From: Eledone cirrhosa
Taxonomy: Eukaryota
Assembly (NCBI GenBank): GCA_964016885.1
Contig: OZ024743.1
Coordinates: forward strand, 333,064,001 to 333,128,000
Direction: 5' to 3'
DNA length: 64,000 nt
A model generated the notes under the pieces. It was not told the origin of the DNA, did not search any database, and worked only from the letters and a program-made list of their open reading frames with translations. Positions 11,434 to 64,000 of this stretch are shown here, piece by piece (within the stretch, counting starts at the first letter, position 1; the number at the start of each line of letters is the position of its first letter). The translations under genes and the position numbers were made by a program.

Positions 11434-11770
11434 CTATATTAAATATTGATGTTTTCACTCTACTAATGTAGTGAGTACCTTATTTACTGTTATGACCCCC
11501 CCCCCCCGGATATATATATATATATATCTCTCTCTCTCTGTATATATATATATATATATAGAGAGAGAGATAATTCAGTGTGTTGGTATATTGAACTAGT
11601 AAATTCAGTGTGGTTTGATGGTCTATAGAAATGAACTTGAATCTTCTTAATGAGAATATTCTTTATGTAATATAATTAATGATTACATTATGTGTTAATT
11701 AATTGTCATCATATCACATTACATACATTTGGTAGTCTCAAATAATTAATAAAAGAAAGTGATAACCTAC

Positions 11771-13507: not shown

Positions 13508-13632
13508 TGTTAAATAAATACTGTGAAAATAATTACGGGGCTACCACATAACAGGACAATCTTCACCAAAATAGTCTGTTGTGTTCCCCACTCAACGTGT
13601 CAAAATTTGTTTGTCTTCCAAGGTACTATCAA

Positions 13633-22300: not shown

Positions 22301-22986
22301 AGTAATATATGTGAACGGCAAAGCATAAACGAACTAAGGGAGAAATTAGGAATAAGAGGGATCAGATGTTGTTTATTCGAGAGAAGACTACGTTGGTATG
22401 GTCACGTGATGCGCATAAAAGACGACAGCTGTATAAAAAAGTGCAGGGCGATAAAAATAGACGGTAGCCACGGAGTAGGCAGACCCAGAAAAACCTGGGA
22501 CGACTTGATAAATTCCGACCTCACACACTTACACCTCTCCCAGACAATGTCACTGGACCGAGATCTTTCGCGCTACACAGTAATACAGAAGACCCGCCTT
22601 GCCTAAGTACAAAGCGAAACCTACAGTCAGTAGGCACCTCTAACAAAAATACACCCCGTCCCACTACCCCCACCTCATCCACACCATCCCCTTCAATGTG
22701 AAGTTATGTTGGTACCACAACATCTAGTCCGAAACAAATGAGGGCGTGTAGGTGTCACGACAAAAAAAACACAGTCCACGCTGTAATGTGGCCGTGTAGG
22801 TAACCCGGTAAAAACCTCCCAGTCCACACTGTAAACGTGGTTGGTGTTAGAAAGGGCATCCAGCCGTAGAAAACCTGCCAGACAGTCCTATACGAGCAGG
22901 ACAACCAATCTTGCCTCAAGTGGGGAAAACTCCCGTCCAAACCCATACAAGCGTGGAAGATGGACGTTAAATGATGATGATGATGA
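19380..22986 (+). mobile_element. Near-full-length RTE-clade LINE (family A)
   Basis: APE endonuclease + RT coding region, ~370-nt 3'UTR and (ATG)n tail; 5' boundary approximate; no TSD recognised. Confidence 0.93.
19561..22606 (+). pseudogene. RTE ORF (APE endonuclease, reverse transcriptase, PHD finger) broken by three frameshifts
   Basis: Four overlapping ORFs carry GTMNVGTL/IQETRW/ISAYAPQ; AGDLNSHVG/SQIDY/SQHRLI; NYRGIKL/QFGF; AFVDLKKAFDRV/GVHQGSVLSPLLF/YADD (21668-21679)/FRYLG. Confidence 0.9.
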
Positions 22987-33859: not shown

Positions 33860-34096
33860 GTTGCTGATGGTGATGATGATGATGGTAAAGGGAGAGAGAG
33901 TGATAGAAAGATAGTAGACATGTAATGAGAATTGATGATTATGATAGTAATGATGTTGATGATGATGACGATAATAATGAGGATTATAAACGGAGAGAGA
34001 GAGAGAAAGAGATAGAGAAATAGGAAACATGTAGAATTGATGATTATGATAGTAATGATGCTGAAGATGATGATGATGAGGACTAAAGTGATTAGC

Positions 34097-34134
<38 letters not shown>

Positions 34135-34153
34135 AGTGCTAAAGATGATGATG
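33860..34153. repeat. (GAT)n-rich microsatellite region bordering the satellite
   Basis: Direct inspection; includes an internal duplication agaattgatgattatgatagtaatgatg. Confidence 0.9.
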
Positions 34154-34209
34154 AGAAAACAGTATAGTTCCTAAACTTTCAGAAACATTTTTTCATGCTC
34201 AGAGTTGCT
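34154..34209 (+). mobile_element. Remnant of a CR1/L2-group LINE ORF2 C-terminus, contiguous with the satellite
   Basis: Translates RKQYSS / LNFQKHFFMLRVA immediately before the monomer WNKLPASVVSCRDTASFKTSM; matches the FFxxRVxxxWNxLPxxVVxxxxxxxFK motif. Confidence 0.7.
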
Positions 34210-37200
34210 GGAACAAACTACCTGCATCAGTTGTTAGCTGTCGAGACACTGCATCCTTTAAAACCTCCATGGAACAAACTACCTGCACCAGTTGTTAGCT
34301 GTCGAGACACTGCATCCTTTATAACCTCCATGGAACAAACTACCTGCATCAGTTGTTAGCTATCGAGACACTGCATCCTTTAAAACCTCCATGGAACAAA
34401 CTACCTGCATCAGTTGTTAGCTGTCGAGACACTGCATCCTTTAAAACCTCCATGGAACAAACTACCTGCATCAGTTGTTAGCTGTCGAGACACTGCATCC
34501 TTTAAAACCTCCATGGAACAAACTACCTCCATCAGTTGTTAGCTGTCGAGACACTGCTTCCTTTAAAACCTCCATGGAACAAACTACCTGCATCAGTTGT
34601 TAGCTGTCGAGACACTGCATCCTTTAAAACCTCCATGGAACAAACTACCTGCATCAGTTGTTAGCTGTCGAGACACTGCAACCTTTAAAACCTCCATGGA
34701 ACAAACTACCTGCATCAGTTGTTAGCTGTCGAGACACTGCATCCTTTAAAACCTCCATGGAACAAACTACCTGCATCAGTTGTTAGCTGTCGAGACACTG
34801 CATCCTATAAAACCTCCATGGAACAAACTACCTACATCAGTAGTTAGCTGTCGAGACACTGCATCCTTTAAAACCTCCACGGAACAAACTGCCTGCATCA
34901 GTTGTTAGCTGTCGAGACACTGCATCCTTTAAAACCTCCATGGAACAAACTACCTGCATCAGTTGTTAGCTGTCGAGACACTGCATCCTTTAAAACCTCC
35001 ATGGAACAAACTACCTGCATCAGTTGTTAGCTGTCGAGACACTGCATCCTTTAAAACCTCTATGGATCAAACTAACTGCAACAGTTGCTAGCTATCGAGA
35101 CACTGCATCCTTTAAAACCTCCATGGAACAAACTACCTACATCAGTTGTTAGCTGTCGAGACACTGCATCCTTTAAAACCTCCATGGAACAAACTACCTG
35201 CATCAGTTGTTAGCTGTCGAGACACTGCATCCTTTAAAACCTCCATGGAACAAACTACCTACATCAGTAGTTAGCTGTCGAGACACTGCATCCTTTAAAA
35301 CATCCATGGAACAAACTGCCTGTATCAGTTGTTAGCTGTCGAGACACTGCATCCTTTAAAACCTCCATGGAACAAACTACCTACATCAGTTGTTAGCTGT
35401 CGAGACACTGCATCCTTTAAAACCTCCATGGAACAAACTACCTTCATCAGTTGTTAGCTGTCGAGACACTGCATCCTTTAAAACCTCCATGGAACAAACT
35501 ACCTGCATCAGTTGTTAGCTGTCGAGACACTGCATCCTTTAAAACCTCCATGGAACAAACTACCTGCATCAGTTGTTAGCTGTCGAGACACTGCATCCTT
35601 TAAAACCTCCATGGATCACACTACCTACATCAGTAGTTAGCTGTCGAGACACTGCATCCTTTAAAACCTCCATGGAACAAACTGCCTGTATCAGTTGTTA
35701 GCTGTCGAGACACTGCATCCTTTAAAACCTCCATGGAACAAACTACCTACATCAGTTGTTAGCTGTCGAGACACTGCATCCTTTAAAACCTCCATGGAAC
35801 AAACTACCTGCATCAGTTGTTAGCTGTCGAGACACTGCATCCTTTAAAACCTCCATGGAACAAACTACCTGCATCAGTTGTTAGCTGTCGAGACACTGCA
35901 TCCTTTAAAACCTCCATGGATCAAACTACCTGCAACAGTTGCTAGCTGTCGAGACACTGCATCCGATAAAACCTCCATGGAACAAACTACCTACATCAGT
36001 TGTTAGCTGTCGAGACACTGCTTCCTTTAAAACCTCCATGGAACAAACTACCTACATCAGTTGTTAGCTGTCGAGACACTGCATCCTTTAAAACCTCCAT
36101 GGAACAAACTACCTGCATCAGTTGTTAGCTGTCGAGACACTGCATCCTTTAAAACCTCCATGGAACAAACTACCTGCATCAGTTGTTAGCTGTCGAGACA
36201 CTGCATCCTTTAAAACCTCCATGGAACAAACTACCTGCATCAGTTGTTAGCTGTCGAGACACTGCATCCTTTAAAACCTCCATGGAACAAACTACCTGCA
36301 TCAGTAGTTAGCTGTCGAGACACTGCATTCTTTAAAACCTCCAAGGAACAAACTACCTGCATCAGTAGTTAGCTGTCGAGGCACTGCATCCTTTAAAACC
36401 TCCATGGAACAAACTGCCTGTATCAGTTGTTAGCTGTCGAGACACTGCATCCTTTAAAACCTCCATGGAACAAACTACCTGCATCAGTTGTTAGCTGTCG
36501 AGACACTGCATCCTTTAAAACCTCCATGGAACAAACTACCTGCATCAGTTGTTAGCTGTCGAGACACTGCATCCTTTAAAACCTCCATGGAACAAACTAC
36601 CTGCATCAGTTGTTAGCTGTCGAGACACTGCATCCTTTAAAACCTCCATGGAACAAACTACCTGCATCAGTAGTTAGCTGTCGAGACACTGCATTCTTTA
36701 AAACCTCCATGGAACATACTACCTGCATCAGTAGTTAGCTGTCGAGACACTGCATCCTTTAAAACCTCCATGGAACAAACTGCCTGTATCAGTTGTTAGC
36801 TGTCGAGACACTGCATCCTTTAAAACCTCCATGGAACAAACTACCTCCATCAGTTGTTAGCTGTCGAGACACTGCATCCTTTAAAACCTCCATGGAACAA
36901 ACTGCCTGTATCAGTTGTTAGCTGTCGAGACACTGCATCCTTTAAAACCTCCATGGAACAAACTACCTGCATCAGTAGTTAGCTGTCGAGACACTGCATT
37001 CTTTAAAACCTCCAAGGAACAAACTACCTGCATCAGTAGTTAGCTGTCGAGGCACTGCATCCTTTAAAACCTCCATGGAACAAACTGCCTGTATCAGTTG
37101 TTAGCTGTCGAGACACTGCATCCTTTAAAACCTCCATGGAACAAACTACCTGCATCAGTTGTTAGCTGTCGAGACACTGCATCCTTTAAAACCTCCATGG

Positions 37201-40200
37201 AACAAACTACCTGCATCAGTAGTTAGCTGTCGAGACACTGCATTCTTTAAAACCTCCATGGAACATACTACCTGCATCAGTAGTTAGCTGTCGAGACACT
37301 GCATCCTTTAAAACCTCCAAGGAACAAACTACCTGCATCAGTAGTTAGCTGTCGAGGCACTGCATCCTTTAAAACCTCCATGGAACAAACTGCCTGTATC
37401 AGTTGTTAGCTGTCGAGACACTGCATCCTTTAAAACCTCCATGGAACAAACTACCTGCATCAGTTGTTAGCTGTCGAGACACTGCATCCTTTAAAACCTC
37501 CATGGAACAAACTACCTGCATCAGTAGTTAGCTGTCGAGACACTGCATTCTTTAAAACCTCCAAGGAACAAACTACCTGCATCAGTAGTTAGCTGTCGAG
37601 GCACTGCATCCTTTAAAACCTCCATGGAACAAACTGCCTGTATCAGTTGTTAGCTGTCGAGACACTGCATCCTTTAAAACCTCCATGGAACAAACTACCT
37701 GCATCAGTTGTTAGCTGTCGAGACACTGCATCCTTTAAAACCTCCATGGAACAAACTACCTGCATCAGTTGTTAGCTGTCGAGACACTGCATCCTTTAAA
37801 ACCTCCATGGAACAAACTACCTGCATCAGTTGTTAGCTGTCGAGACACTGCATCCTTTAAAACCTCCATGGAACAAACTACCTGCATCAGTAGTTAGCTG
37901 TCGAGACACTGCATTCTTTAAAACCTCCATGGAACATACTACCTGCATCAGTAGTTAGCTGTCGAGACACTGCATCCTTTAAAACCTCCATGGAACAAAC
38001 TGCCTGTATCAGTCGTTAGCTGTCGAGACACTGCATCCTTTAAAACCTCCATGGAACAAACTACCTCCATCAGTTGTTAGCTGTCGAGACACTGCATCCT
38101 TTAAAACCTCCATGGAACAAACTACCTGCATCAGTTGTTAGCTGTCGAGACACTGCATCCTTTAAAACCTCCATGGAACAAACTACCTGCATCAGTTGTT
38201 AGCTGTCGAGACACTGCATCCTTTAAAACCTCCATGGAACAAACTACCTGCATCAGTAGTTAGCTGTCGAGACACTGCATTCTTTAAAACCTCCATGGAA
38301 CATACTACCTGCATCAGTAGTTAGCTGTCGAGACACTGCATCCTTTAAAACCTCCATGGAACAAACTGCCTGTATCAGTTGTTAGCTGTCGAGACACTGC
38401 ATCCTTTAAAACCTCCATGGAACAAACTACCTCCATCAGTTGTTAGCTGTCGAGACACTGCATCCTTTAAAACCTCCATGGAACAAACTACCTGCATCAG
38501 TTGTTAGCTGTCGAGACACTGCATCCTTTAAAACCTCCATGGAACAAACTACCTGCATCAGTTGTTAGCTGTCGAGACACTGCATCCTTTAAAACCTCCA
38601 TGGAACAAACTACCTGCATCAGTTGTTAGCTGTCGAGACACTGCTTCCTTTAAAACCTCCATGGAACAAACTACCTGCATCAGTTGTTAGCTGTCGAGAC
38701 ACTGCATCCTTTAAAACCTCCATGGAACAAACTACCTGCATCAGTTGTTAGCTGTCGAGACACTGCATCCTTTAAAACCTCCATGGAACAAACTACCTGC
38801 ATCAGTTGTTAGCTGTCGAGACACTGCATCCTTTAAAACCTCCATGGAACAAACTACCTGCATCAGTTGTTAGCTGTCGAGACACTGCATCCTTTAAAAC
38901 CTCCATGGATCAAACTACCTGCAACAGTTGCTAGCTGTCGAGACACTGCATCCTTTAAAACCTCCATGGAACAAACTACCTACATCAGTTGTTAGCTGTC
39001 GAGACACTGCATCCTTTAAAACCTCCATGGAACAAACTACCTGCATCAGTTGTTAGCTGTTGAGACACTGCTTCCTTTAAAACCTCCATGGAACAAACTA
39101 CCTACATCAGTTGTTAGCTGTTGAAACACTGCTTCCTTTAAAACCTCCATGGAACAAACTACCTGCATCAGTTGTTAGCTGTCGAGACACTGCATCCTTT
39201 AAAACCTCCATGGAACAAACTACCTGCATCAGTTGTTAGCTGTCGAGACACTGCATCCTTTAAAACCTCCATGGAACAAACTACCTGCATCAGTTGTTAG
39301 CTGTCGAGACACTGCATCCTTTAAAACCTCCATGGAACAAACTACCTGCATCAGTTGTTAGCTGTCGAGACACTGCATCCTTTAAAACCTCCATGGATCA
39401 AACTACCTGCAACAGTTGCTAGCTGTCGAGACACTGCATCCGTTAAAACCTCCATGGAACAAACTACCTACATCAGTTGTTAGCTGTCGAGACACTGCTT
39501 CCTTTAAAACCTCCATGGAACAAACTACCTACATCAGTTGTTAGCTGTTGAGACACTGCTTCCTTTAAAACCTCCATGGAACAAACTACCTGCATCAGTT
39601 GTTAGCTGTCGAGACACTGCATCCTTTAAAACCTCCATGGAACAAACTACCTGCATCAGTTGTTAGCTGTCGAGACACTGCATCCTTTCAAACCTCCATG
39701 GAACAAACTACCTGCATCAGTTGTTAGCTGTCGAGACACTGCATCCTTTAAAACCTCCATGGAACAAACTACCTGCATCAGTAGTTAGCTGTCGAGACAC
39801 TGCATTCTTTAAAACCTCCATGGAACAAACTACCTGCATCAGTAGTTAGCTGTCGAGACACTGCATCCTTTAAAACCTCCATGGAACAAACTGCCTGTAT
39901 CAGTTGTTAGCTGTCGAGACACTGCATCCTTTAAAACCTCCATGGAACAAACTACCTCCATCAGTTGTTAGCTGTCGAGACACTGCATCCTTTAAAACCT
40001 CCATGGAACAAACTACCTGCATCAGTTGTTAGCTGTCGAGACACTGCATCCTTTAAAACCTCCATGGAACAAACTACCTGCATCAGTTGTTAGCTGTCGA
40101 GACACTGCATCCTTTAAAACCTCCATGGAACAAACTACCTGCATCAGTTGTTAGCTGTCGAGACACTGCTTCCTTTAAAACCTCCATGGAACAAACTACC

Positions 40201-43200
40201 TGCATCAGTTGTTAGCTGTCGAGACACTGCATCCTTTAAAACCTCCATGGAACAAACTACCTGCATCAGTTGTTAGCTGTCGAGACACTGCATCCTTTAA
40301 AACCTCCATGGAACAAACTACCTGCATCAGTTGTTAGCTGTTGAGACACTGCTTCCTTTAAAACCTCCATGGAACAAACTACCTGCATCAGTTGTTAGCT
40401 GTCGAGACACTGCATCCTTAAAAACCTCCATGGAACAAACTACCTGCATCAGTTGTTAGCTGTCGAGACACTGCATCCTTTAAAACCTCCATGGAACAAA
40501 CTACCTGCATCAGTTGTTAGCTGTCGAGACACTGCATCCTTTAAAACCTCCATGGATCAAACTACCTGCAACAGTTGCTAGCTGTCGAGACACTGCATCC
40601 GTTAAAACCTCCATGGAACAAACTACCTACATCAGTTGTTAGCTGTCGAGACACTGCATCCTTTAAAACCTCCATGGAACAAACTACCTACATCAGTTGT
40701 TAGCTGTTGAGACACTGCTTCCTTTAAAACCTCCATGGAACAAACTACCTACATCAGTTGTTAGCTGTCGAGACACTGCTTCCTTTAAAACCTCCATGGA
40801 ACAAACTACATACATCAGTTGTTAGCTGTTGAGACACTGCTTCCTTTAAAACCTCCATGGAACAAACTACCTGCATCAGTTGTTAGCTGTCGAGACACTG
40901 CATCCTTTAAAACCTCCATGGAACAAACTACCTGCATCAGTTGTTAGCTGTCGAGACACTGCATCCTTTAAAACCTCCATGGAACAAACTACCTGCATCA
41001 GTTGTTAGCTGTCGAGACACTGCATCCTTTAAAACCTCCATGGAACAAACTACCTGCATCAGTAGTTAGCTGTCGAGACACTGCATTCTTTAAAACCTCC
41101 ATGGAACAAACTACCTGCATCAGTAGTTAGTTGTCGAGACACTGCATCCTTTAAAACCTCCATGGAACAAACTGCCTGTATCAGTTGTTAGCTGTCGAGA
41201 CACTGCATCCTTTAAAACCTCCATGGAACAAACTACCTACATCAGTTGTTAGCTGTCGAGACACTGCATCCTTTAAAACCTCCATGGAACAAACTACCTG
41301 CATCAGTTGTTAGCTGTCGAGACACTGCATCCTTTAAAACCTCCATGGAACAAACTGCCTGTATCAGTTGTTAGCTGTCGAGACACTGCATCCTTTAAAA
41401 CCTCCATGGAACAAACTACCTACATCAGTTGTTAGCTGTCGAGACACTGCATCCTTTAAAACCTCCATGGAACAAACTACCTGCATCAGTTGTTAGCTGT
41501 CGAGACACTGCATCCTTTAAAACCTCCATGGAACAAACTACCTGCATCAGTTGTTAGCTGTCGAGACACTGCATCCTTTAAAATCTCCATGGAACAAACT
41601 ACCTGCATCAGTTGTTAGCTGTCGAGACACTGCTTCCTTTAAAACCTCCATGGAACAAACTACCTGCATCAGTTGTTAGCTGTCGAGACACTGCATCCTT
41701 TAAAACCTCCATGGAACAAACTACCTGCATCAGTTGTTAGCTGTCGAGACACTGCATCCTTTAAAACCTCCATGGAAAAAAACTACCTGCATCAGTTGTT
41801 AGCTGTTGAGACACTGCTTCCTTTAAAACCTCCATGGAACAAACTACCTGCATCAGTTGTTAGCTGTCGAGACACTGCATCCTTAAAAAGCTCCATGGAA
41901 CAAACTACCTGCATCAGTTGTTAGCTGTCGAGACACTGCATCCTTTAAAACCTCCATGGAACAAACTACCTGCATCAGTTGTTAGCTGTCGAGACACTGC
42001 ATCCTTTAAAACCTCCATGGATCAAACTACCTGCAACAGTTGCTAGCTGTCGAGACACTGCATCCGTTAAAACCTCCATGGAACAAACTACCTACATCAG
42101 TTGTTAGCTGTCGAGACACTGCATCCTTTAAAACCTCCATGGAACAAACTACCTGCATCAGTTGTTAGCTGTCGAGACACTGCATCCTTTAAAACCTCCA
42201 TGGAACAAACTACCTGCATCAGTTGTTAGCTGTCGAGACACTGCTTCCTTTAAAACCTCCATGGAACAAACTACCTGCATCAGTTGTTAGCTGTCGAGAC
42301 ACTGCATCCTTTAAAACCTCCATGGAACAAACTACCTGCATCAGTTGTTAGCTGTCGAGACACTGCATCCTTTAAAACCTCCATGGAACAAACTACCTGC
42401 ATCAGTTGTTAGCTGTTGAGACACTGCTTCCTTTAAAACCTCCACGGAACAAACTACCTGCATCAGTTGTTAGCTGTCGAGACACTGCATCCTTAAAAAC
42501 CTCCATGGAACAAACTACCTGCATCAGTTGTTAGCTGTCGAGACACTGCATCCTTTAAAACCTCCATGGAACAAACTACCTGCATCAGTTGTTAGCTGTC
42601 GAGACACTGCATCCTTTAAAACCTCCATGGATCAAACTACCTGCAACAGTTGCTAGCTGTCGAGACACTGCATCCGTTAAAACCTCCATGGAACAAACTA
42701 CCTACATCAGTTGTTAGCTGTCGAGACACTGCATCCTTTAAAACCTCCATGGAACAAACTACCTACATCAGTTGTTAGCTGTCGAGACACTGCATCCTTT
42801 AAAACCTCCATGGAACAAACTACCTGCATCAGTTGTTAGCTGTCGAGACACTGCATCCTTTAAAACCTCCATGGATCAAACTACCTGCAACAGTTGCTAG
42901 CTGTCGAGACACTGCATCCGTTAAAACCTCCATGGAACAAACTACCTACATCAGTTGTTAGCTGTCGAGACACTGCATCCTTTAAAACCTCCATGGAACA
43001 AACTACCTACATCAGTTGTTAGCTGTTGAGACACTGCTTCCTTTAAAACCTCCATGGAACAAACTACCTACATCAGTTGTTAGCTGTCGAGACACTGCTT
43101 CCTTTAAAACCTCCATGGAACAAACTACATACATCAGTTGTTAGCTGTTGAGACACTGCTTCCTTTAAAACCTCCATGGAACAAACTACCTGCATCAGTT

Positions 43201-46200
43201 GTTAGCTGTCGAGACACTGCATCCTTTAAAACCTCCATGGAACAAACTACCTGCATCAGTTGTTAGCTGTCGAGACACTGCATCCTTTAAAACCTCCATG
43301 GAACAAACTACCTGCATCAGTTGTTAGCTGTCGAGACACTGCATCCTTTAAAACCTCCATGGAACAAACTACCTGCATCAGTAGTTAGCTGTCGAGACAC
43401 TGCATTCTTTAAAACCTCCATGGAACAAACTACCTGCATCAGTAGTTAGTTGTCGAGACACTGCATCCTTTAAAACCTCCATGGAACAAACTGCCTGTAT
43501 CAGTTGTTAGCTGTCGAGACACTGCATCCTTTAAAACCTCCATGGAACAAACTACCTACATCAGTTGTTAGCTGTCGAGACACTGCATCCTTTAAAACCT
43601 CCATGGAACAAACTACCTGCATCAGTTGTTAGCTGTCGAGACACTGCATCCTTTAAAACCTCCATGGAACAAACTGCCTGTATCAGTTGTTAGCTGTCGA
43701 GACACTGCATCCTTTAAAACCTCCATGGAACAAACTACCTACATCAGTTGTTAGCTGTCGAGACACTGCATCCTTTAAAACCTCCATGGAACAAACTACC
43801 TGCATCAGTTGTTAGCTGTCGAGACACTGCATCCTTTAAAACCTCCATGGAACAAACTACCTGCATCAGTTGTTAGCTGTCGAGACACTGCATCCTTTAA
43901 AATCTCCATGGAACAAACTACCTGCATCAGTTGTTAGCTGTCGAGACACTGCTTCCTTTAAAACCTCCATGGAACAAACTACCTGCATCAGTTGTTAGCT
44001 GTCGAGACACTGCATCCTTTAAAACCTCCATGGAACAAACTACCTGCATCAGTTGTTAGCTGTCGAGACACTGCATCCTTTAAAACCTCCATGGAAAAAA
44101 ACTACCTGCATCAGTTGTTAGCTGTTGAGACACTGCTTCCTTTAAAACCTCCATGGAACAAACTACCTGCATCAGTTGTTAGCTGTCGAGACACTGCATC
44201 CTTAAAAAGCTCCATGGAACAAACTACCTGCATCAGTTGTTAGCTGTCGAGACACTGCATCCTTTAAAACCTCCATGGAACAAACTACCTGCATCAGTTG
44301 TTAGCTGTCGAGACACTGCATCCTTTAAAACCTCCATGGATCAAACTACCTGCAACAGTTGCTAGCTGTCGAGACACTGCATCCGTTAAAACCTCCATGG
44401 AACAAACTACCTACATCAGTTGTTAGCTGTCGAGACACTGCATCCTTTAAAACCTCCATGGAACAAACTACCTGCATCAGTTGTTAGCTGTCGAGACACT
44501 GCATCCTTTAAAACCTCCATGGAACAAACTACCTGCATCAGTTGTTAGCTGTCGAGACACTGCTTCCTTTAAAACCTCCATGGAACAAACTACCTGCATC
44601 AGTTGTTAGCTGTCGAGACACTGCATCCTTTAAAACCTCCATGGAACAAACTACCTGCATCAGTTGTTAGCTGTCGAGACACTGCATCCTTTAAAACCTC
44701 CATGGAACAAACTACCTGCATCAGTTGTTAGCTGTTGAGACACTGCTTCCTTTAAAACCTCCACGGAACAAACTACCTGCATCAGTTGTTAGCTGTCGAG
44801 ACACTGCATCCTTAAAAACCTCCATGGAACAAACTACCTGCATCAGTTGTTAGCTGTCGAGACACTGCATCCTTTAAAACCTCCATGGAACAAACTACCT
44901 GCATCAGTTGTTAGCTGTCGAGACACTGCATCCTTTAAAACCTCCATGGATCAAACTACCTGCAACAGTTGCTAGCTGTCGAGACACTGCATCCGTTAAA
45001 ACCTCCATGGAACAAACTACCTACATCAGTTGTTAGCTGTCGAGACACTGCATCCTTTAAAACCTCCATGGAACAAACTACCTACATCAGTTGTTAGCTG
45101 TTGAGACACTGCTTCCTTTAAAACCTCCATGGAACAAACTACCTACATCAGTTGTTAGCTGTCGAGACACTGCTTCCTTTAAAACCTCCATGGAACAAAC
45201 TACATACATCAGATGTTAGCTGTTGAGACACTGCTTCCTTTAAAACCTCCATGGAACAAACTACCTGCATCAGTTGTTAGCTGTCGAGACACTGCATCCT
45301 TTAAAACCTCCATGGAACAAACTACCTGCATCAGTTGTTAGCTGTCGAGACACTGCATCCTTTAAAACCTCCATGGAACAAACTACCTGCATCAGTTGTT
45401 AGCTGTCGAGACACTGCATCCTTTAAAACCTCCATGGAACAAACTACCTGCATCAGTTGTTAGCTGTTGAGACACTGCTTCCTTTAAAACCTCCATGGAA
45501 CAAACTACCTGCATCAGTTGTTAGCTGTCGAGACACTGCATCCTTAAAAACCTCCATGGAACAAACTACCTGCATCAGTTGTTAGCTGTCGAGACACTGC
45601 ATCCTTTAAAACCTCCATGGAACAAACTACCTGCATCAGTTGTTAGCTGTCGAGACACTGCATCCTTTAAAACCTCCATGGATCAAACTACCTGCAACAG
45701 TTGCTAGCTGTCGAGACACTGCATCCGTTAAAACCTCCATGGAACAAACTACCTACATCAGTTGTTAGCTGTCGAGACACTGCATCCTTTAAAACCTCCA
45801 TGGAACAAACTACCTACATCAGTTGTTAGCTGTTGAGACACTGCTTCCTTTAAAACCTCCATGGAACAAACTACCTACATCAGTTGTTAGCTGTTGAGAC
45901 ACTGCTTCCTTTAAAACCTCCATGGAACAAACTACCTGCATCAGTTGTTAGCTGTCGAGACACTGCATCCTTTAAAACCTCCATGGAACAAACTACCTGC
46001 ATCAGTTGTTAGCTGTCGAGACACTGCATCCTTTAAAACCTCCATGGAACAAACTACCTGCATCAGTTGTTAGCTGTCGAGACACTGCATCCTTTTAAAC
46101 CTCCATGGAACAAACTACCTGCATCAGTAGTTAGCTGTCGAGACACTGCATCCTTTAAAACCTCCATGGAACAAACTACCTGCATCAGTAGTTAGCTGTC

Positions 46201-52200: not shown

Positions 52201-55200
52201 CCTCCATGGAACAAACTACCTGCATCAGTTGTTAGCTGTCGAAACACTGCATCCTTTAAAACCTCCATGGAACAAACTACCTGAATCAGTTGTTAGCTGT
52301 CGAGACACTGCATCCTTTAAAACCTCCATGGAACAAACTACCTGCATCTGTTGTTAGCTGTCGAGACACTGCATCCTTTAAAACCTCCATGGAACAAACT
52401 ACCTACATCAGTAGTTAGCTGTCGAGACACTGCATCCTTTAAAACCTCCATGGAACAAACTGCCTGTATCAGTTGTTAGCTGTCGAGACACTGCATCCTT
52501 TAAAACCTCCATGGAACAAACTACCTACATCAGTTGTTAGCTGTCGAGACACTGCATCCTTTAAAACCTCCATGGAACAAACTACCTGCATCAGTTGTTA
52601 GCTGTCGAGACACTGCATCCTTTAAAACCTCCATGGAACAAACTACCTGCATCAGTTGTTAGCTGTCGAGACACTGCATCCTTTAAAACCTCCATGGAAC
52701 AAACTACCTGCATCAGTTGTTAGCTGTCGAGACACTGCATCCTTTAAAACCTCCATGGATCAAACTACCTGCAACAGTTCCTAGCTTTCGAGACACTGCA
52801 TCCTTTAAAACCTCCATGGAACAAACTACCTACATCAGTTGTTAGCTGTCGAGACACTGCATCCTTTAAAACCTCCATGGAACAAACTACCTACATCAGT
52901 TGTTAGCTGTCGAGACACTGCATCCTTTAAAACCTCCATGGAACAAACTACCTACATCAGTTGTTAGCTGTCGAGACACTGCTTCCTTTAAAACCTCCAT
53001 GGAACAAACTACCTGCATCAGTTGTTAGCTGTCGAGACACTGCATCCTTTAAAACCTCCATGGAACAAACTACCTGAATCAGTTGTTAGCTGTCGAGACA
53101 CTGCATCCTTTAAAACCTCCATGGAACAAACTACCTTCATCAGTTGTTAGCTGTCGAGACACTGCATCCTTTAAAACCTCCATGGAACAAACTACCTGCA
53201 TCAGTTGTTAGCTGTCGAGACACTGCATCCTTTAAAACCTCCATGGAACAAACTACCTGCATCAGTTGTTAGCTGTCGAGACACTGCATCCTTTAAAACC
53301 TCCATGGAACAAACTACCTACATCAGTAGTTAGCTGTCGAGACACTGCATCCTTTAAAACCTCCATGGAACAAACTGCCTGTATCAGTTGTTAGCTGTCG
53401 AGACACTGCATCCTTTAAAACCTCCATGGAACAAACTACCTACATCAGTTGTTAGCTGTCGAGACACTGCATCCTTTAAAACCTCCATGGAACAAACTGC
53501 CTGTATCAGTTGTTAGCTGTCGAGACACTGCTTCCTTTAAAACCTCCATGGAACAAACTACCTGCATCAGTTGTTAGCTGTCGAGACACTGCATCCTTTA
53601 AAACCTCCATGGAACAAACTACCTGCATCAGTTGTTAGCTGTCGAGACACTGCATCCTTTAAAACCTCCATGGAACAAACTACCTGCATCAGTTGTTAGC
53701 TGTCGAGACACTGCATCCTTTAAAACCTCCATGGAACAAACTACCTGCATCAGTTGTTAGCTGTCGAAACACTGCATCCTTTAAAACCTCCATGGAACAA
53801 ACTACCTGAATCAGTTGTTAGCTGTCGAGACACTGCATCCTTTAAAACCTCCATGGAACAAACTACCTGCATCAGTTGTTAGCTGTCGAGACACTGCATC
53901 CTTTAAAACCTCCATGGAACAAACTACCTACATCAGTAGTTAGCTGTCGAGACACTGCATCCTTTAAAACCTCCATGGAACAAACTACCTGCATCAGTTG
54001 TTAGCTGTCGAGACACTGCATCCTTTAAAACCTCCATGGAACAAACTACCTGCATCAGTTGTTAGCTGTCAAGACACTGCATCCTTTAAAACCTCCATGG
54101 AACAAACTACCTGCATCAGTTGTTAGTTGTCCGGACACTGCATCCTTTAAAACCTCCATGGAACAAACTGCCTGTATCAGTTGTTAGCTGTCGAGACACT
54201 GCATCCTTTAAAACCTCCATGGAACAAACTACCTACATCAGTTGTTAGCTGTCGAGACACTGCATCCTTTAAAACCTCCATGGAACAAACTGCCTGTATC
54301 AGTTGTTAGCTGTCGAGACACTGCTTCCTTTAAAACCTCCATGGAACAAACTACCTGCATCAGTTGTTAGCTGTCGAGACACTGCATCCTTTAAAACCTC
54401 CATGGAACAAACTACCTGCATCAGTTGTTAGCTGTCGAGACACTGCATCCTTTAAAACCTCCATGGAACAAACTACCTGCATCAGTTGTTAGCTGTCGAG
54501 ACACTGCATCCTTTAAAACCTCCATGGAACAAACTACCTGCATCAGTTGTTAGCTGTCGAAACACTGCATCCTTTAAAACCTCCATGGAACAAACTACCT
54601 GAATCAGTTGTTAGCTGTCGAGACACTGCATCCTTTAAAACCTCCATGGAACAAACTACCTGCATCAGTTGTTAGCTGTCGAGACACTGCATCCTTTAAA
54701 ACCTCCATGGAACAAACTACCTACATCAGTAGTTAGCTGTCGAGACACTGCATCCTTTAAAACCTCCATGGAACAAACTACCTGCATCAGTTGTTAGCTG
54801 TCGAGACACTGCATCCTTTAAAACCTCCATGGAACAAACTACCTGCATCAGTTGTTAGCTGTCAAGACACTGCATCCTTTAAAACCTCCATGGAACAAAC
54901 TACCTGCATCAGTTGTTAGTTGTCCGGACACTGCATCCTTTAAAACCTCCATGGAACAAACTCCCTGCATCAGTTGTTAGCTGTCGAGACACTGCATCCT
55001 TTAAAACCTCCATGGAACAAACTACCTGCATCAGTTGTTAGTTGTCCGGACACTGCATCCTTTAAAACCTCCATGGAACAAACTACCTGCATCAGTTGTT
55101 AGCTGTCGAGACACTGCATCTTTTAAAACCTCCATGGAACAAACTACCTGCATCAGCTGTTAGCTATCGAGACACTGCATCCTTTAAAACCTCCATAGAA

Positions 55201-58200
55201 CATACTACCTGCATCAGTTGTTAGCTGTCAGGACACTACATCCTTTAAAACCTCCATGGAACAAACTACCTGCATCAGTTGTTAGCTGTCAGGACACTGC
55301 ATCCTTCAAAACCTCCATGGAACAAACTACCTGCATCAGTTGTTAGCTGTCGAGACACTGCATCCTTTAAAACCTCCATGGAACAAACTACCTGCATCAG
55401 TTGTTAGCTGTCGAGACACTGCATCCTTTAAAACCTCCATGGAACAAACTACCTGCATCAGTTGTTAGCTGTCGAAACACTGCATCCTTTAAAACCTCCA
55501 TGGAACAAACTACCTGAATCAGTTGTTAGCTGTCGAGACACTGCATCCTTTAAAACCTCCATGGAACAAACTACCTGCATCAGTTGTTAGCTGTCGAGAC
55601 ACTGCATCCTTTAAAACCTCCATGGAACAAACTACCTACATCAGTAGTTAGCTGTCGAGACACTGCATCCTTTAAAACCTCCATGGAACAAACTGCCTGT
55701 ATCAGTTGTTAGCTGTCGAGACACTGCATCCTTTAAAACCTCCATGGAACAAACTACCTACATCAGTTGTTAGCTGTCGAGACACTGCATCCTTTAAAAC
55801 CTCCATGGAACAAACTACCTGCATCAGTTGTTAGCTGTCGAGACACTGCATCCTTTAAAACCTCCATGGAACAAACTACCTGCATCAGTTGTTAGCTGTC
55901 GAGACACTGCATCCTTTAAAACCTCCATGGAACAAACTACCTGCATCAGTTGTTAGCTGTCGAGACACTGCATCCTTTAAAACTTCCATGGAACAAACTA
56001 CCTGCATCAGTTGTTAGCTGTCGAGACACTGCATCCTTTAAAACCTCCATGGAACAAACTACCTGCATCAGTTGTTAGCTGTCGAAACACTGCATCCTTT
56101 AAAACCTCCATGGAACAAACTACCTGAATCAGTTGTTAGCTGTCGAGACACTGCATCCTTTAAAACCTCCATGGAACAAACTACCTGCATCAGTTGTTAG
56201 CTGTCGAGACACTGCATCCTTTAAAACCTCCATGGAACAAACTACCTACATCAGTAGTTAGCTGTCGAGACACTGCATCCTTTAAAACCTCCATGGAACA
56301 AACTGCCTGTATCAGTTGTTAGCTGTCGAGATACTGCATCCTTTAAAACCTCCATGGAACAAACTACCTACATCAGTTGTTAGCTGTCGAGACACTGCAT
56401 CCTTTAAAACCTCCATGGAACAAACTACCTGCATCAGTTGTTAGCTGTCGAGACACTGCATCCTTTAAAACCTCCATGGAACAAACTACCTGCATCAGTT
56501 GTTAGCTGTCGAGACACTGCATCCTTTAAAACCTCCATGGAACAAACTACCTGCATCAGTTGTTAGCTGTCGAGACACTGCATCCTTTAAAACCTCCATG
56601 GAACAAACTACCTTCATCAGTTGTTAGCTGTCGAGACACTGCATCCTTTAAAACCTCCATGGAACAAACTACCTGCATCAGTTGTTAGCTGTCGAGACAC
56701 TGCATCCTTTAAAACCTCCATGGAACAAACTACCTGCATCAGTAGTTAGCTGTCGAGACACTGCATCCTTTAAAACCTCCATGGAACAAACTACCTACAT
56801 CAGTAGTTAGCTGTCGAGACACTGCATCCTTTAAAACCTCCATGGAACAAACTGCCTGTATCAGTTGTTAGCTGTCGAGACACTGCATCCTTTAAAACCT
56901 CCATGGAACAAACTACCTACATCAGTTGTTAGCTGTCGAGACACTGCATCCTTTAAAACCTCCATGGAACAAACTACCTGCATCAGTTGTTAGCTGTCGA
57001 GACACTGCATCCTTTAAAACCTCCATGGAACAAACTACCTGCATCAGTTGTTAGCTGTTGAGACACTGCATTCTTTAAAACCTCCATGGAACAAACTACC
57101 TGCATCAGTTGTTAGCTGTCGAGACACTGCATCCTTTAAAACCTCCATGGAACAAACTACCTGCATCAGTTGTTAGCTGTCGAGACACTGCATCCTTTAA
57201 AACCTCCATGGAACAAACTACCTGCATCAGTTGTTAGCTGTCGAAACACTGCATCCTTTAAAACCTCCATGGAACAAACTACCTGAATCAGTTGTTAGCT
57301 GTCAAGACACTGCATCCTTTAAAACCTCCATGGAACAAACTACCTGCATCAGTTGTTAGCTGTCGAGACACTGCATCCTTTAAAACCTCCATGGAACAAA
57401 CTACCTACATCAGTAGTTAGCTGTCGAGACACTGCATCCTTTAAAACCTCCATGGAACAAACTGCCTGTATCAGTTGTTAGCTGTCGAGACACTGCATCC
57501 TTTAAAACCTCCATGGAACAAACTACCTACATCAGTTGTTAGCTGTCGAGACACTGCATCCTTTAAAACCTCCATGGAACAAACTACCTGCATCAGTTGT
57601 TAGCTGTCGAGACACTGCATCCTTTAAAACCTCCATGGAACAAACTACCTGCATCAGTTGTTAGCTGTCGAGACACTGCATCCTTTAAAACCTCCATGGA
57701 ACAAACTACCTGCATCAGTTGTTAGCTGTCGAGACACTGCATCCTTTAAAACCTCCATGGATCAAACTACCTGCAACAGTTGCTAGCTATCGAGACACTG
57801 CATCCTTTAAAACCTCCATGGAACAAACTACCTACATCAGTTGTTAGCTGTCGAGACACTGCATCCTTTAAAACCTCCATGGAACAAACTACCTACATCA
57901 GTTGTTAGCTGTCGAGACACTGCATCCTTTAAAACCTCCATGGAACAAACTACCTACATCAGTTGTTAGCTGTCGAGACACTGCTTCCTTTAAAACCTCC
58001 ATGGAACAAACTACCTGCATCAGTTGTTAGCTGTCGAGACACTGCATCCTTTAAAACCTCCATGGAACAAACTACCTGAATCAGTTGTTAGCTGTCGAGA
58101 CACTGCATCCTTTAAAACCTCCATGGAACAAACTACCTTCATCAGTTGTTAGCTGTCGAGACACTGCATCCTTTAAAACCTCCATGGAACAAACTACCTG

Positions 58201-61200
58201 CATCAGTTGTTAGCTGTCGAGACACTGCATCCTTTAAAACCTCCATGGAACAAACTACCTGCATCAGTTGTTAGCTGTCGAGACACTGCATCCTTTAAAA
58301 CCTCCATGGATCAAACTACCTGCAACAGTTGCTAGCTGTCGAGACACTGCATCCGTTAAAACCTCCATGGAACAAACTACCTACATCAGTTGTTAGCTGT
58401 CGAGACACTGCATCCTTTAAAACCTCCATGGAACAAACTACCTACATCAGTTGTTAGCTGTTGAAACACTGCTTCCTTTAAAACCTCCATGGAACAAACT
58501 ACCTACATCAGTTGTTAGCTGTTGAGACACTGCTTCCTTTAAAACCGCCATGGAACAAACTACCTGCATCAGTAGTTAGCTGTCGAGACACTGCATCCTT
58601 TAAAACCTCCATGGAACAAACTGCCTGATTCAGTTGTTAGCTGTCGAGACACTGCATCCTTTAAAACCTCCATGGAACAAACTACCTACATCAGTTGTTA
58701 GCTGTCGAGACACTGCATCCTTTAAAACCTCCATGGAACAAACTACCTGCATCAGTTGTTAGCTGTCGAGACACTGCATCCTTTAAAACCTCCATGGAAC
58801 AAACTACCTGCATCAGTTGTTAGCTGTCGAGACACTGCATCCTTTAAAACCTCCATGGAACAAACTACCTGCATCAGTTGTTAGCTGTCGAGACACTGCA
58901 TCCTTTAAAACCTCCATGGAACAAACTACCTGCATCAGTTGTTAGCTGTCGAAACACTGCATCCTTTAAAACCTCCATGGAACAAACTACCTGAATCAGT
59001 TGTTAGCTGTCGAGACACTGCATCCTTTAAAACCTCCATGGAACAAACTACCTGCATCAGTTGTTAGCTGTTGAGACACTGCATCCTTTAAAACCTCCAT
59101 GGAACAAACTACCTACATCAGTAGTTAGCTGTCGAGACACTGCATCCTTTAAAACCTCCATGGAACAAACTGCCTGTATCAGTTGTTAGCTGTCGAGACA
59201 CTGCATCCTTTAAAACCTCCATCGAACAAACTACCTACATCAGTTGTTAGCTGTCGAGACACTGCATCCTTTAAAACCTCCATGGAACAAACTACCTGCA
59301 TCAGTTGTTAGCTGTCGAGACACTGCATCCTTTAAAACCTCCATGGAACAAACTACCTGCATCTGTTGTTAGCTGTCGAGACACTGCATCCTTTAAAACC
59401 TTCATGGAACAAACTACCTGCATCAGTTGTTAGCTGTCGAGACAATGCATCCTTTAAAACCTCCATGGATCAAACTACCTGCAACAGTTGCTAGCCATCG
59501 AGACACTGCATCCTTTAAAACCTCCATGGAACAAACTACCTACATCAGTTGTTAGCTGTCGAGACACTGCATCCTTTAAAACCTCCATGGAACAAACTAC
59601 CTACATCAGTTGTTAGCTGTCGAGACACTGCATCCTTTAAAACCTCCATGGAACAAACTACCTACATCAGTTGTTAGCTGTTGAGACACTGCTTCCTTTA
59701 AAACCTCCATGGAACAAACTACCTGCATCAGTTGTTAGCTGTCGAGACACTGCATCCTTTAAAACCTACATGGAACAAACTACCTGAATCAGTTGTTAGC
59801 TGTCGAGACACTGCTTCCTTTAAAACCTCCATGGAAAAAACTACCTGCATCAGTTGTTAGCTGTCGAGACACTACATCCTTTAAAACCTCCATGGAACAA
59901 ACTACCTGCATCAGTTGTTAGCTGTCGAGACACTGCATCCTTTAAAACCTCCATGGAACAAACTTCCTGCATCAGTTGTTAGCTGTTGAGACACTGCATC
60001 CTTTAAAACCTCCATGGAACAAACTACCTACATCAGTTGTTAGCTGTTGAGACACTGCTTCCTTTAAAACCTCCATGGAACAAACTACCTGCATCAGTTG
60101 TTAGCTGTCGAGACACTGCATCCTTTAAAACCTCCATGGAACAAACTACCTGAATCAGTTGTTAGCTGTCGAGACACTGCTTCCTTTAAAACCTCCATGG
60201 AACAAACTACCTGCATCAGTTGTTAGCTGTCGAGACACTACATCCTTTAAAACCTCCATGGAACAAACTACCTACATCAGTAGTTAGCTGTCGAGACACT
60301 GCATCCTTTAAAACCTCCATGGAACAAACTGCCTGTATCAGTTGTTAGCTGTCGAGACACTGCATCCTTTAAAACCTCCATGGAACAAACTACCTACATC
60401 AGTTGTTAGCTGTCGAGACACTGCATCCTTTAAAACCTCCATGGAACAAACTACCTGCATCAGTTGTTAGCTGTCGAGACACTGCATCCTTTAAAACCTC
60501 CATGGAACAAACTACCTGCATCAGTTGTTAGCTGTCGAGACACTGCATCCTTTAAAACCTCCATGGATCAAACTACCTGCAACAGTTGCTAGCTATCGAG
60601 ACACTGCATCCTTTAAAATCTCCATGGAACAAACTACCTACATCAGTTGTTAGCTGTCGAGACACTGCATCCTTTAAAACCTCCATGGAACAAACTACCT
60701 ACATCAGTTGTTAGCTGTCGAGACACTGCATCCTTTAAAACCTCCATGGAACAAACTACCTACATCAGTTGTTAGCTGTCGAGACACTGCTTCCTTTAAA
60801 ACCTCCATGGAACAAACTACCTGCATCAGTTGTTAGCTGTCGAGACACTGCATCCTTTAAAACCTCCATGGAACAAACTACCTGAATCAGTTGTTAGCTG
60901 TCGAGACACTGCATCCTTTAAAACCTCCATGGAACAAACTACCTTCATCAGTTGTTAGCTGTCGAGACACTGCATCCTTTAAAACCTCCATGGAACAAAC
61001 TACCTGCATCAGTTGTTAGCTGTCGAGACACTGCATCCTTTAAAACCTCCATGGAACAAACTACCTGCATCAGTTGTTAGCTGTCGAGACACTGCATCCT
61101 TTAAAACCTCCATGGATCAAACTACCTGCAACAGTTGCTAGCTGTCGAGACACTGCATCCGTTAAAACCTCCATGGAACAAACTACCTACATCAGTTGTT

Positions 61201-64000
61201 AGCTGTCGAGACACTGCATCCTTTAAAACCTCCATGGAACAAACTACCTACATCAGTTGTTAGCTGTTGAAACACTGCTTCCTTTAAAACCTCCATGGAA
61301 CAAACTACCTACATCAGTTGTTAGCTGTTGAGACACTGCTTCCTTTAAAACCTCCATGGAACAAACTACCTGCATCAGTAGTTAGCTGTCGAGACACTGC
61401 ATCCTTTAAAACCTCCATGGAACAAACTGCCTGATTCAGTTGTTAGCTGTCGAGACACTGCATCCTTTAAAACCTCCATGGAACAAACTACCTACATCAG
61501 TTGTTAGCTGTCGAGACACTGCATCCTTTAAAACCTCCATGGAACAAACTACCTGCATCAGTTGTTAGCTGTCGAGACACTGCATCCTTTAAAACCTCCA
61601 TGGAACAAACTACCTGAGCTGTCGAGACACTGCATCCTTTAAAACCTCCATGGAACAAACTACCTGCATCAGTTGTTAGCTGTCGAGACACTGCATCCTT
61701 TAAAACCTCCATGGAACAAACTACCTGCATCAGTTGTTAGCTGTCGAAACACTGCATCCTTTAAAACCTCCATGGAACAAACTACCTGAATCAGTTGTTA
61801 GCTGTCGAGACACTGCATCCTTTAAAACCTCCATGGAACAAACTACCTGCATCAGTTGTTAGCTGTCGAGACACTGCATCCTTTAAAACCTCCATGGAAC
61901 AAACTACCTACATCAGTAGTTAGCTGTCGAGACACTGCATCCTTTAAAACCTCCATGGAACAAACTGCCTGTATCAGTTGTTAGCTGTCGAGACACTGCA
62001 TCCTTTAAAACCTCCATCGAACAAACTACCTACATCAGTTGTTAGCTGTCGAGACACTGCATCCTTTAAAACCTCCATGGAACAAACTACCTGCATCAGT
62101 TGTTAGCTGTCGAGACACTGCATCCTTTAAAACCTCCATGGAACAAACTACCTGCATCTGTTGTTAGCTGTCGAGACACTGCATCCTTTAAAACCTCCAT
62201 GGAACAAACTACCTGCATCAGTTGTTAGCTGTCGAGACACTGCATCCTTTAAAACCTCCATGGATCAAACTACCTGCAACAGTTGCTAGCTATCGAGACA
62301 CTGCATCCTTTAAAACCTCCATGGAACAAACTACCTACATCAGTTGTTAGCTGTCGAGACACTGCAACCTTTAAAACCTCCATGGAACAAACTACCTACA
62401 TCAGTTGTTAGCTGTCGAGACACTGCATCCTTTAAAACCTCCATGGAACAAACTACCTACATCAGTTGTTAGCTGTTGAGACACTGCTTCCTTTAAAACC
62501 TCCATGGAACAAACTACCTGCATCAGTTGTTAGCTGTCGAGACACTGCATCCTTTAAAACCTCCATGGAACAAACTACCTGAATCAGTTGTTAGCTGTCG
62601 AGACACTGCTTCCTTTAAAACCTCCATGGAACAAACTACCTGCATCAGTTGTTAGCTGTTGAGACACTACATCCTTTAAAACCTCCATGGAACAAACTAC
62701 CTGCATCAGTTGTTAGCTGTCGAGACACTGCTTCCTTTAAAACCTCCATGGAACAAACTACCTGCATCAGTTGTTAGCTGTCGAGACACTGCATCCTTTA
62801 AAACCTCCATGGAACAAACTACCTGCATCAGTTGTTAGCTGTCGAGACACTGCATCCTTTAAAACCTCCATGGAACAAACTACCTGCATCAGTTGTTAGC
62901 TGTCGAGACACTGCATCCTTTTAAACCTCCATGGAACAAACTACCTGCAACAGTTGCTAGCTGTCGAGACACTGCATCCTTTAAAACCTCCATGGAACAA
63001 ACTACCTGCATCAGTTGCTAGCTGTCGAGGCACTGCATCCTTTAAAACCTCCATGGAACAAACTACCTACATCAGTTGGTAGCTGTCGAGACACTGCTTC
63101 CTTTAAAACCTCCATGGAACAAACTACCTGCATCAGTTGTCAGCTGTCGAGACACTGCATCCTTTAAAACCTCCATGGAACAAATTACCTGCATCAGTTG
63201 TTAGCTGTCGAGACACTGTATCCTTTAAAACCTCCATGGAACAAACTACCTGCATCAGTTGTTAGCTGTCATGACACTGCATCCTTTAAAACCTCCATGG
63301 AACAAACTACCTGCATCAGTTGTTAGCTGTCGAGACACTGCATCCTTTAAAACCTCCATGGAACAAACTACCTGCATCAGTTGTTAGCTGTCGAGACACT
63401 GCATCCTTTAAAACCTCCATGGATCAAACTACCTGCAACAGTTGCTAGCTGTCGAGACACTGCATCCGTTAAAACCTCCATGGAACAAACTACCTACATC
63501 AGTTGTTAGCTGTCGAGACACTGCATCCTTTAAAACCTCCATGGAACAAACTACCTACATCAGTTGTTAGCTGTTGAAACACTGCTTCCTTTAAAACCTC
63601 CATGGAACAAACTACCTACATCAGTTGTTAGCTGTTGAGACACTGCTTCCTTTAAAACCTCCATGGAACAAACTACCTGCATCAGTAGTTAGCTGTCGAG
63701 ACACTGCATCCTTTAAAACCTCCATGGAACAAACTGCCTGATTCAGTTGTTAGCTGTCGAGACACTGCATCCTTTAAAACCTCCATGGAACAAACTACCT
63801 ACATCAGTTGTTAGCTGTCGAGACACTGCATCCTTTAAAACCTCCATGGAACAAACTACCTGCATCAGTTGTTAGCTGTCGAGACACTGCATCCTTTAAA
63901 ACCTCCATGGAACAAACTACCTGAGCTGTCGAGACACTGCATCCTTTAAAACCTCCATGGAACAAACTACCTGCATCAGTTGTTAGCTGTCGAGACACTG
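34209..64000 (+). repeat. 61-bp satellite array (~488 copies, continues beyond the window) with higher-order structure
   Basis: Monomer tggaacaaactacctgcatcagttgttagctgtcgagacactgcatcctttaaaacctcca; period 61 (34210 to 34271); no insertions or inversions seen. Confidence 0.98.

What the first reader, a model, noticed from the sequence alone, without database searches (positions are those of the whole stretch)
34154..64000. 30-kb satellite derived from a LINE coding segment, with the parent remnant still at the array edge
Seen: each 61-bp monomer translates WNKLPASVVSCRDTASFKTSM, and the unique flank just left of the first monomer encodes QKHFFMLRVA. Known: FFxxRVxxxWNxLPxxVVxxxxxxxFK is the conserved C-terminal ORF2 motif of CR1/L2-group LINEs. 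Inference: the array was amplified in situ from one LINE copy, plausibly through CATG microhomology at both ends of the unit (monomers join at cCATGg). This would be a snapshot of TE-to-satellite conversion with its origin preserved. The array is very homogeneous and TE-free although the flank is TE-saturated, implying recent expansion; a centromeric or heterochromatic role is possible but unproven.
Basis: partly seen in the sequence, partly recalled or inferred. Interest (0 to 1): 0.72.

Follow-up and report, generated by a model that had tools for sequence, protein, structure and literature searches.

The report
Contagious satellite growing inside LINE copies
A 166,000-base satellite sits between the two halves of one dead jumping-gene copy, and the same 61-base piece is repeated head to tail in about a fifth of that family's copies, mostly near chromosome ends, likely because the repeat is copied from one dead copy into another and then grows in place.

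Summary
The 61-bp array runs 166,211 bp (about 2,725 units) and ends in the 3' remainder of the same LINE copy. The unit is the coding end of ORF2 of an endonuclease + reverse-transcriptase LINE. The array grew here: one variant haplotype has 136 genome-wide matches and 136 in this array. But this is not a unique birthplace. The same junction follows a LINE 5' flank at 808 loci, against 3,159 single-unit copies. On C1-C2, 64 of 68 multi-unit loci are distal, against 12 of 83 singles. Several copies carry junctions from another subfamily between their own flanks, and neighbouring arrays share variants (p=0.0005). Best reading: rare birth of the junction at a palindromic CATG inside a 10-bp inverted repeat, spread by non-allelic copying, then local expansion. 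Corrections: the left CATG is deleted at this locus, QKHFFMLRVA is out of frame with the first unit, and nothing supports a centromere role. The scan noted this family before at another locus (e1-8810578).

The parts
34038..34154 (+). (GAT)n-rich tract into which the LINE inserted; a similar tract resumes right of the LINE tail, beyond the window
34154..34208 (+). 5' remnant (55 bp) of a 5'-truncated LINE copy, near the end of ORF2; lacks 7 nt at its right end, including the left CATG
   Evidence: 85.7% identical over 56 columns to the long copy L262; compared with other copies
34209..64000 (+). 61-bp tandem array, part inside the window (488.7 units); unit = codons WNKLP...KTS near the end of ORF2. 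Beyond the window it continues to G000 C4:333,264,419 (166,211 bp, about 2,725 units in all) and is followed at C4:333,264,420 to about 333,264,611 by the 3' remainder of the same LINE copy (last ORF2 codons, 3' UTR, degenerate ATT tail; 7.4% from its subfamily consensus)
   Evidence: for the unit; for the part beyond the window

Best explanation
The array is a 61-bp slice of a LINE's ORF2 end, repeated about 2,725 times between the 5' and 3' remains of one LINE copy, and it is one of more than 800 such tandems, which likely arose in three steps. (1) Birth, inferred: the junction forms rarely by a replication or repair slip between two CATG sites. These sit in the two arms of a 10-bp inverted repeat that brackets the unit, which would fix the register. 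(2) Spread, shown as mosaic haplotypes, pathway inferred: single-unit copies gain the junction by copying it from another, often nearby, copy through non-allelic gene conversion or template switching, and keep their own flanks. This happens mainly in distal regions, which are probably recombination-rich. (3) Growth, shown to be local: unequal exchange or block duplication expands each tandem in place, usually to 2-55 units and rarely to hundreds of kb. Whether this locus got its first junction by step 1 or step 2 cannot be told. No host function is needed or shown.
For: Both LINE ends bracket the array, with a GAT-rich tract on both sides. A private triple-variant haplotype has 136 genome-wide matches, all forward, and 136 in this array (one-base-shifted string). 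Identical blocks of up to 77 units recur at lags of 38-295 units. Post-insertion origin: 64 of 68 multi-unit loci on C1-C2 lie in the outer 10%, against 12 of 83 singles (p=5e-25; estimated 33% vs 0.5% of copies). Tandems occur in all three main subfamilies, and loci with 3 or more units are 6 of 43, 39 of 71 and 20 of 48 sampled loci as divergence goes 2.7, 5.2, 6.5%. Array 5' ends (808) and 3' ends (754) are about equal. Import: 4 of 4 multi-unit copies of subfamily S1 found by the main-type junction pattern keep S1 flanks around a foreign junction (L083, L092, L224, L229). The S1-type junction has 13 matches at 7 loci against 1,589 S1 ends. Of 4 of those 7 examined, one is pure S1 (L316), two are GG-subfamily copies holding an S1 tract (L318, 79 kb from L316; L319) and one is mosaic (L313). 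Arrays under 2 Mb apart share more variants (Jaccard 0.098 vs 0.044, 71 arrays, permutation p=0.0005, no shared unique flanks). The A12C variant is mixed in 33 of 71 arrays and fixed in 1. Inverted repeat: the MFE fold of a single copy pairs the two arms; a stem of 10 bp or more has P=0.0013 given the CATG pair.
Against: The whole-region fold is not exceptional (z = -0.67). The search patterns fix much of the arms, so stem conservation in singles (50 of 63 at 10 bp or more) is partly built in. A loose end in organism B's contigs reads as the S1-type junction, whose stem is only 8 bp (49 contigs), so 10 bp is not required. Unchecked scan notes report similar internal tandems in other LINE families of this genome, so the inverted repeat may only set the register. 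All 9 multi-unit loci with the GG-subfamily 3' flank marker in the sample have GG in every unit, which fits own-sequence duplication as well as same-subfamily donors. Neighbours also have slightly closer LINE flanks (0.106 vs 0.128). A12C occurs in singles of all three subfamilies and could be a mutable site. Recombination rate was not measured. S1 import cases were found with a pattern that cannot see the S1-type junction; one search covers that side only by exact match. The sample is biased to C1-C3.
Confidence: 0.68

Rival explanations
1. Every locus duplicated the unit independently from its own sequence (hairpin or microhomology slip), and mosaic haplotypes are later conversion that did not create any tandem.
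For: 9 of 9 GG-flank loci have only GG units. Several dimers share rare changes in both units (L192, L087, L195). The inverted repeat offers a hotspot.
Against: In dimers L083, L092, L229 and L318 the only junction present is foreign. L229 shows that shared own variants can flank an imported junction. S1 copies, which keep both CATG sites, almost never show their own junction (7 loci vs 1,589 ends).
Confidence: 0.17
2. The tandem is made at insertion: reverse transcriptase slips back at the RNA hairpin, or source elements already carry a tandem; mosaics come from switches between RNA templates.
For: The hairpin would exist in the RNA. Dimers exist in the youngest subfamily. Longer arrays have shorter 5' LINE flanks (median 141 vs 338 nt capped at 600, p=0.004).
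Against: Insertion-time tandems should be spread like singles, but are about 60-fold rarer in interiors. Carrying arrays in RNA should leave many 5'-truncated arrays, but 3' ends do not exceed 5' ends. Rare junction types cluster among neighbours. The flank-length effect is not significant within subfamilies.
Confidence: 0.08
3. Arrays spread as extrachromosomal circles that integrate by one crossover into the homologous unit of another LINE copy.
For: It would also give foreign tracts between own flanks. L092 and L318 fit it. It is proposed for Drosophila Rsp-like (PMC7403614, passages).
Against: In L224, L229 and L083 the recipient's own alleles appear on both sides of the foreign tract. A single crossover does not give that without a later event. 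Gains of one unit would need 61-bp circles.
Confidence: 0.05
4. The 166-kb array is a selected centromeric or structural element.
For: It is large and homogeneous, and a second satellite begins 12 kb further right.
Against: It is one of more than 800 loci and holds 1,963 of 16,708 exact junction matches. It is 20.7 kb from a protein-coding ORF. No chromatin data were available.
Confidence: 0.04

Closest known systems
SINE-derived satellites (sSat1-3) of squamates, PMC10702118 (parts 1-4 of 5 of the text read; supplements not seen)
   Same: A fixed internal slice of a retroposon is tandemly repeated at hundreds to thousands of loci, from a few to about 1,000 units, subtelomeric while the parent is evenly spread; the 67-nt snake unit is similar in size.
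   Different: Here the parent is a LINE and the unit is coding. Both element ends are usually kept (808 vs 754), whereas most sSats keep one end. That paper suggests unequal recombination and, in the parts read, shows no donor-recipient haplotypes or inverted-repeat register.
Rsp-like spreading into 1.688 clusters in Drosophila, PMC7403614 (passages)
   Same: A microhomology-born junction spreads to homologous landing sites by interlocus conversion or eccDNA, then expands locally.
   Different: There the landing sites are another satellite and the mechanism is proposed from junctions. Here they are single dispersed LINE copies, and subfamily markers trace donor and recipient.
LTR-retrotransposon-derived satellites of Lathyrus sativus, PMC7004042 (abstract only)
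   Same: Short arrays inside dispersed elements occasionally expand, depending on chromosome region.
   Different: LTR elements, with expansion in primary constrictions. Here even the first doubling depends on position and is distal.
LINE-ORF satellites: chicken HinfI (CR1), PROsat and Pvc 20 (L1), as listed in PMC9659126 (passages)
   Same: The satellite contains LINE ORF2 sequence.
   Different: There the LINE piece is part of a larger monomer or a partial match. Here the whole monomer is an exact ORF2 slice still inside its parent copy, with all intermediate sizes present.

Membership tests
APE-type non-LTR retrotransposon (parent) | ORF2 with AP endonuclease followed by reverse transcriptase | tested here: met
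   L262: Exo_endo_phos E=3e-15, RVT_1 E=3e-31; the RT frame ends in the unit's peptide
APE-type non-LTR retrotransposon (parent) | 5'-truncated copies with a fixed 3' end and simple-repeat tail | tested here: met
   variable 5' ends; ATT-type tails
CR1/L2 group | RT phylogeny with named CR1/L2 references | not tested
   no reference elements were obtained; the Atlas gave only generic RVT_1 clusters
   the motif is in frame in L262; that it marks CR1/L2 is recalled and comes from no call
TE-derived satellite DNA | long homogeneous head-to-tail array | tested here: met
   166 kb, 2.4% mean distance to the modal unit
TE-derived satellite DNA | monomer collinear with a TE and flanked by it | tested here: met
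sSat-like multi-locus retroposon satellite | same unit at many loci, distal bias, parent evenly spread | tested here: met
sSat-like multi-locus retroposon satellite | parent is a tRNA-derived SINE | tested here: not met
   the parent is a coding LINE; it works like sSat but is not a member
Centromeric satellite | CENP-A occupancy; one major array per chromosome | not testable with these tools
   no chromatin data; giant arrays could not be listed genome-wide

The most novel reading that the evidence does not exclude
A tandem duplication behaves as a contagious allele inside a LINE family. It is born rarely at a hairpin with a palindromic core, is passed between dead copies by non-allelic copying in distal chromosome regions, has converted about a third of distal copies into satellite seeds, and a few of these run away to 100-400 kb. 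Subfamily markers make donor, recipient, distance and age readable for hundreds of events in one genome.
Probability: 0.55. Interest if true: 0.72.

Novelty: new variant of a known kind. Interest (0 to 1): 0.57.

Why it matters
How a satellite gets its first duplication, and how one unit appears at many loci, is usually inferred from end products. Here single-unit copies, dimers, short arrays and a 166-kb array coexist inside marked LINE copies, so birth, spread and growth can be counted separately. The share of multi-unit copies could also serve as a record of where non-allelic recombination happens. Satellites from transposons, and their distal bias, are already described; the new part is the haplotype evidence for copy-to-copy transfer of the junction and the inverted-repeat register. 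I found no paper describing this in five PMC/bioRxiv searches aimed at it; only listings were seen for most hits, and subscription journals are not covered.

Tried and rejected
Unique birthplace: rejected. A single tandem-bearing master element: rejected, because tandems occur in all subfamilies and depend on position. Segmental duplication as the source of neighbour similarity: no shared unique flanks among the 71 arrays tested; L159, an apparent duplicate of L158, and L137, the other end of L079, were dropped first, as were 14 repeat fetches of the same loci. Dating by flank versus unit divergence: the window's flank is 7.4% from its subfamily and its units 2.9% from the modal unit, but the comparison across loci is not significant (p=0.83), so it is not used as evidence of import. 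Shorter 5' flanks at long arrays: significant overall, not within subfamilies; unexplained. Testing copies that lack the left CATG as a class: only this locus matched, so there is no test. Other organisms: the 61-bp joint is listed for runs X1 and X4 (organisms A, B), not for X5 and X7 (141 weaker joints not shown) nor X9, X12, X13, X14; contigs show presence, not absence, and X1 may be the window's own species. No RNA run was laid, so expression is untested. The Atlas search did not resolve the LINE clade. A words look-up of earlier findings returned nothing.
Full report
1. Observation. TRF reports one array at 34209-64000, period 61, 488.7 copies, 96% matches. The window is G000 C4:333,064,001-333,128,000, in a 3.0-Gb animal genome. 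Fetching the next 200 kb shows the array ends at window-based coordinate 200419: 166,211 bp, about 2,725 units, no N and no gap in monomer coverage over 30 bp. Of 2,716 parsed units, 2,672 are 61 bp, 789 equal the modal unit and 278 are distinct; mean distance to the modal unit is 2.4%. Identical blocks of up to 77 units recur at lags of 38-295 units. Right of the last unit come the last ORF2 codons, the 3' UTR and a degenerate ATT tail, then a GAT-rich tract like the one on the left. So the array lies inside one 5'-truncated LINE copy.

2. Parent. A long copy (L262) has endonuclease and RT domains, and its RT frame ends ...HFFTLRVAEAWNKLPASVVSCRDTASFKASMLPEIRQHYS. The unit is therefore an exact slice of the ORF2 end. 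CR1/L2 membership rests on a recalled motif and was not tested by a tree. In the window copy 7 nt are missing just before the first unit, so QKHFFMLRVA is out of frame with WNKLP and the left CATG is gone. Only this locus matches a strict pattern for that deletion; L013 and L016 show the same gap with other changes.

3. Growth in place. A triple-variant haplotype has 136 matches genome-wide, all forward, and the 100 listed are all in this array; the array holds 136 of the same string shifted by one base. The host copy's 3' flank is 7.4% from its subfamily consensus, so it is older than the identical blocks.

4. Not a unique birthplace. Strict patterns give 808 LINE 5' flanks followed by two or more units, 3,159 single-unit copies, 754 array 3' ends, 82 exact dimers with a different pattern and 16,708 exact junction matches, 1,963 of them here. 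Closed arrays in my sample have 2-55 units (110 loci). On C1-C2, 64 of 68 multi-unit loci are in the outer 10% of the chromosome, against 12 of 83 singles from a 291-copy variant subset: p=5e-25, an estimated 33% vs 0.5% of copies. This array is 45.8 Mb (12%) from the end of C4. Clustering 174 loci on their 3' flanks gives three main subfamilies (2.7, 5.2, 6.5% divergence), all with tandems and with longer arrays in the older two (dimers were over-sampled by design). These patterns point to a process that acts after insertion.

5. Why always this junction. In single copies the unit is bracketed by the arms GAAGCATGGA and TCCATGCTTC, a perfect 10-bp inverted repeat with CATG in each arm; the MFE fold pairs them, though the whole fold is unremarkable (z = -0.67). 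Given the two CATGs, a stem this long arises in 0.13% of shuffles, while 196 other direct repeats of 4 nt or more are available in the same 450 nt. A 7-bp direct repeat inside the unit gave another junction with 1,828 matches, the 100 listed all in one region of C1. That region holds a separate 27/30-bp satellite of about 423 kb with LINE sequence at both ends (interior sampled at 8 places only). The role of the hairpin is inferred, not shown.

6. Spread between copies. Subfamily S1 differs at seven unit positions, four of them in the last eight bases. It has 1,589 ends, and 1 of 30 examined is multi-unit. Four multi-unit S1 copies keep S1 flanks and an S1 last unit but carry a foreign junction; L224 holds three wholly foreign units. 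The S1-type junction has only 13 matches at 7 loci, three within 0.74 Mb on C12 and two within 0.58 Mb on C22. Of four examined, L316 is pure S1, L318 (79 kb away) and L319 are GG-subfamily copies with an S1 tract inside, and L313 is mosaic. Seven of 16 GG-informative loci are mosaic, while the nine with the GG flank marker are pure, so the junction has at least three sequence types and probably several births. Across 71 arrays, those under 2 Mb apart share more variants than distant ones (p=0.0005). In L224, L229 and L083 the recipient's own alleles lie on both sides of the foreign tract, which fits copying out and back better than circle integration (inference). For the window's own locus no marker tells birth from import.

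7. Other organisms. Related LINE ends occur in runs of at least eight coded organisms. The 61-bp go-back joint with 4 shared letters is in 46 contigs of X1 and 17 of X4, and is not listed for six other runs. This suggests a lineage-limited process but cannot show absence.

8. Comparison. It works like squamate SINE-derived satellites (PMC10702118, parts 1-4 of 5 read) and like Rsp-like spread in Drosophila (PMC7403614, passages), and resembles arrays inside LTR elements of Lathyrus (PMC7004042, abstract). LINE-ORF satellites are listed in PMC9659126 (passages). A repeat annotation of Octopus vulgaris (PMC13282606, passages) has no word starting with 'satellite' in its main text; that this genome is a cephalopod's is my recalled guess. 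Supplements of these papers were not seen and may hold related cases. Unchecked scan notes describe this family at another locus and similar tandems in other LINE families of this genome, which suggests a genome-wide tendency.

9. Verdict. Real; a new variant of a known kind. Growth inside one LINE copy is close to certain. Spread by non-allelic copying is supported by specific mosaics but not counted genome-wide. The hairpin trigger and the recombination link are inferred. No function is shown. Interest 0.57.

Noticed in passing
G000 C1:19,649,000-20,072,437 (L162, L265-L272, L321-L323): A second giant satellite (27/30-bp units, about 423 kb) made from a sub-slice of the same 61-bp unit, also with LINE sequence at both ends; a separate LINE copy 4 kb away (L161) has a single such duplication.
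   Followed up: partly
window 11741-13540, minus strand: 600-aa open frame with PIH1 and PIH1_CS domains; it resembles Kintoun/DNAAF2 (name recalled). Its start lies about 20.7 kb from the array.
   Followed up: partly
window about 19465-22603, plus strand: Another broken LINE with endonuclease, RT and a PHD-finger match, with no BLAST match to the array's parent.
   Followed up: no
G000 C4:333,276,812 onward, beyond the window (L035-L040): An unrelated 28-bp satellite, at least 51 kb, 92% matches, begins 12.4 kb right of the array.
   Followed up: no
array, beyond the window (L021-L034): Eight 34-bp units are present; the length fits deletion between the 7-bp internal direct repeats that also gave the C1 satellite.
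   Followed up: no
L077, L089, L090, L094, L097, the window copy, the C1 satellite: Long arrays often keep only 20-60 bp of LINE on their 5' side (21 of 62 under 100 nt, vs 6 of 44 dimers and 14 of 50 singles); partly explained by subfamily age.
   Followed up: partly
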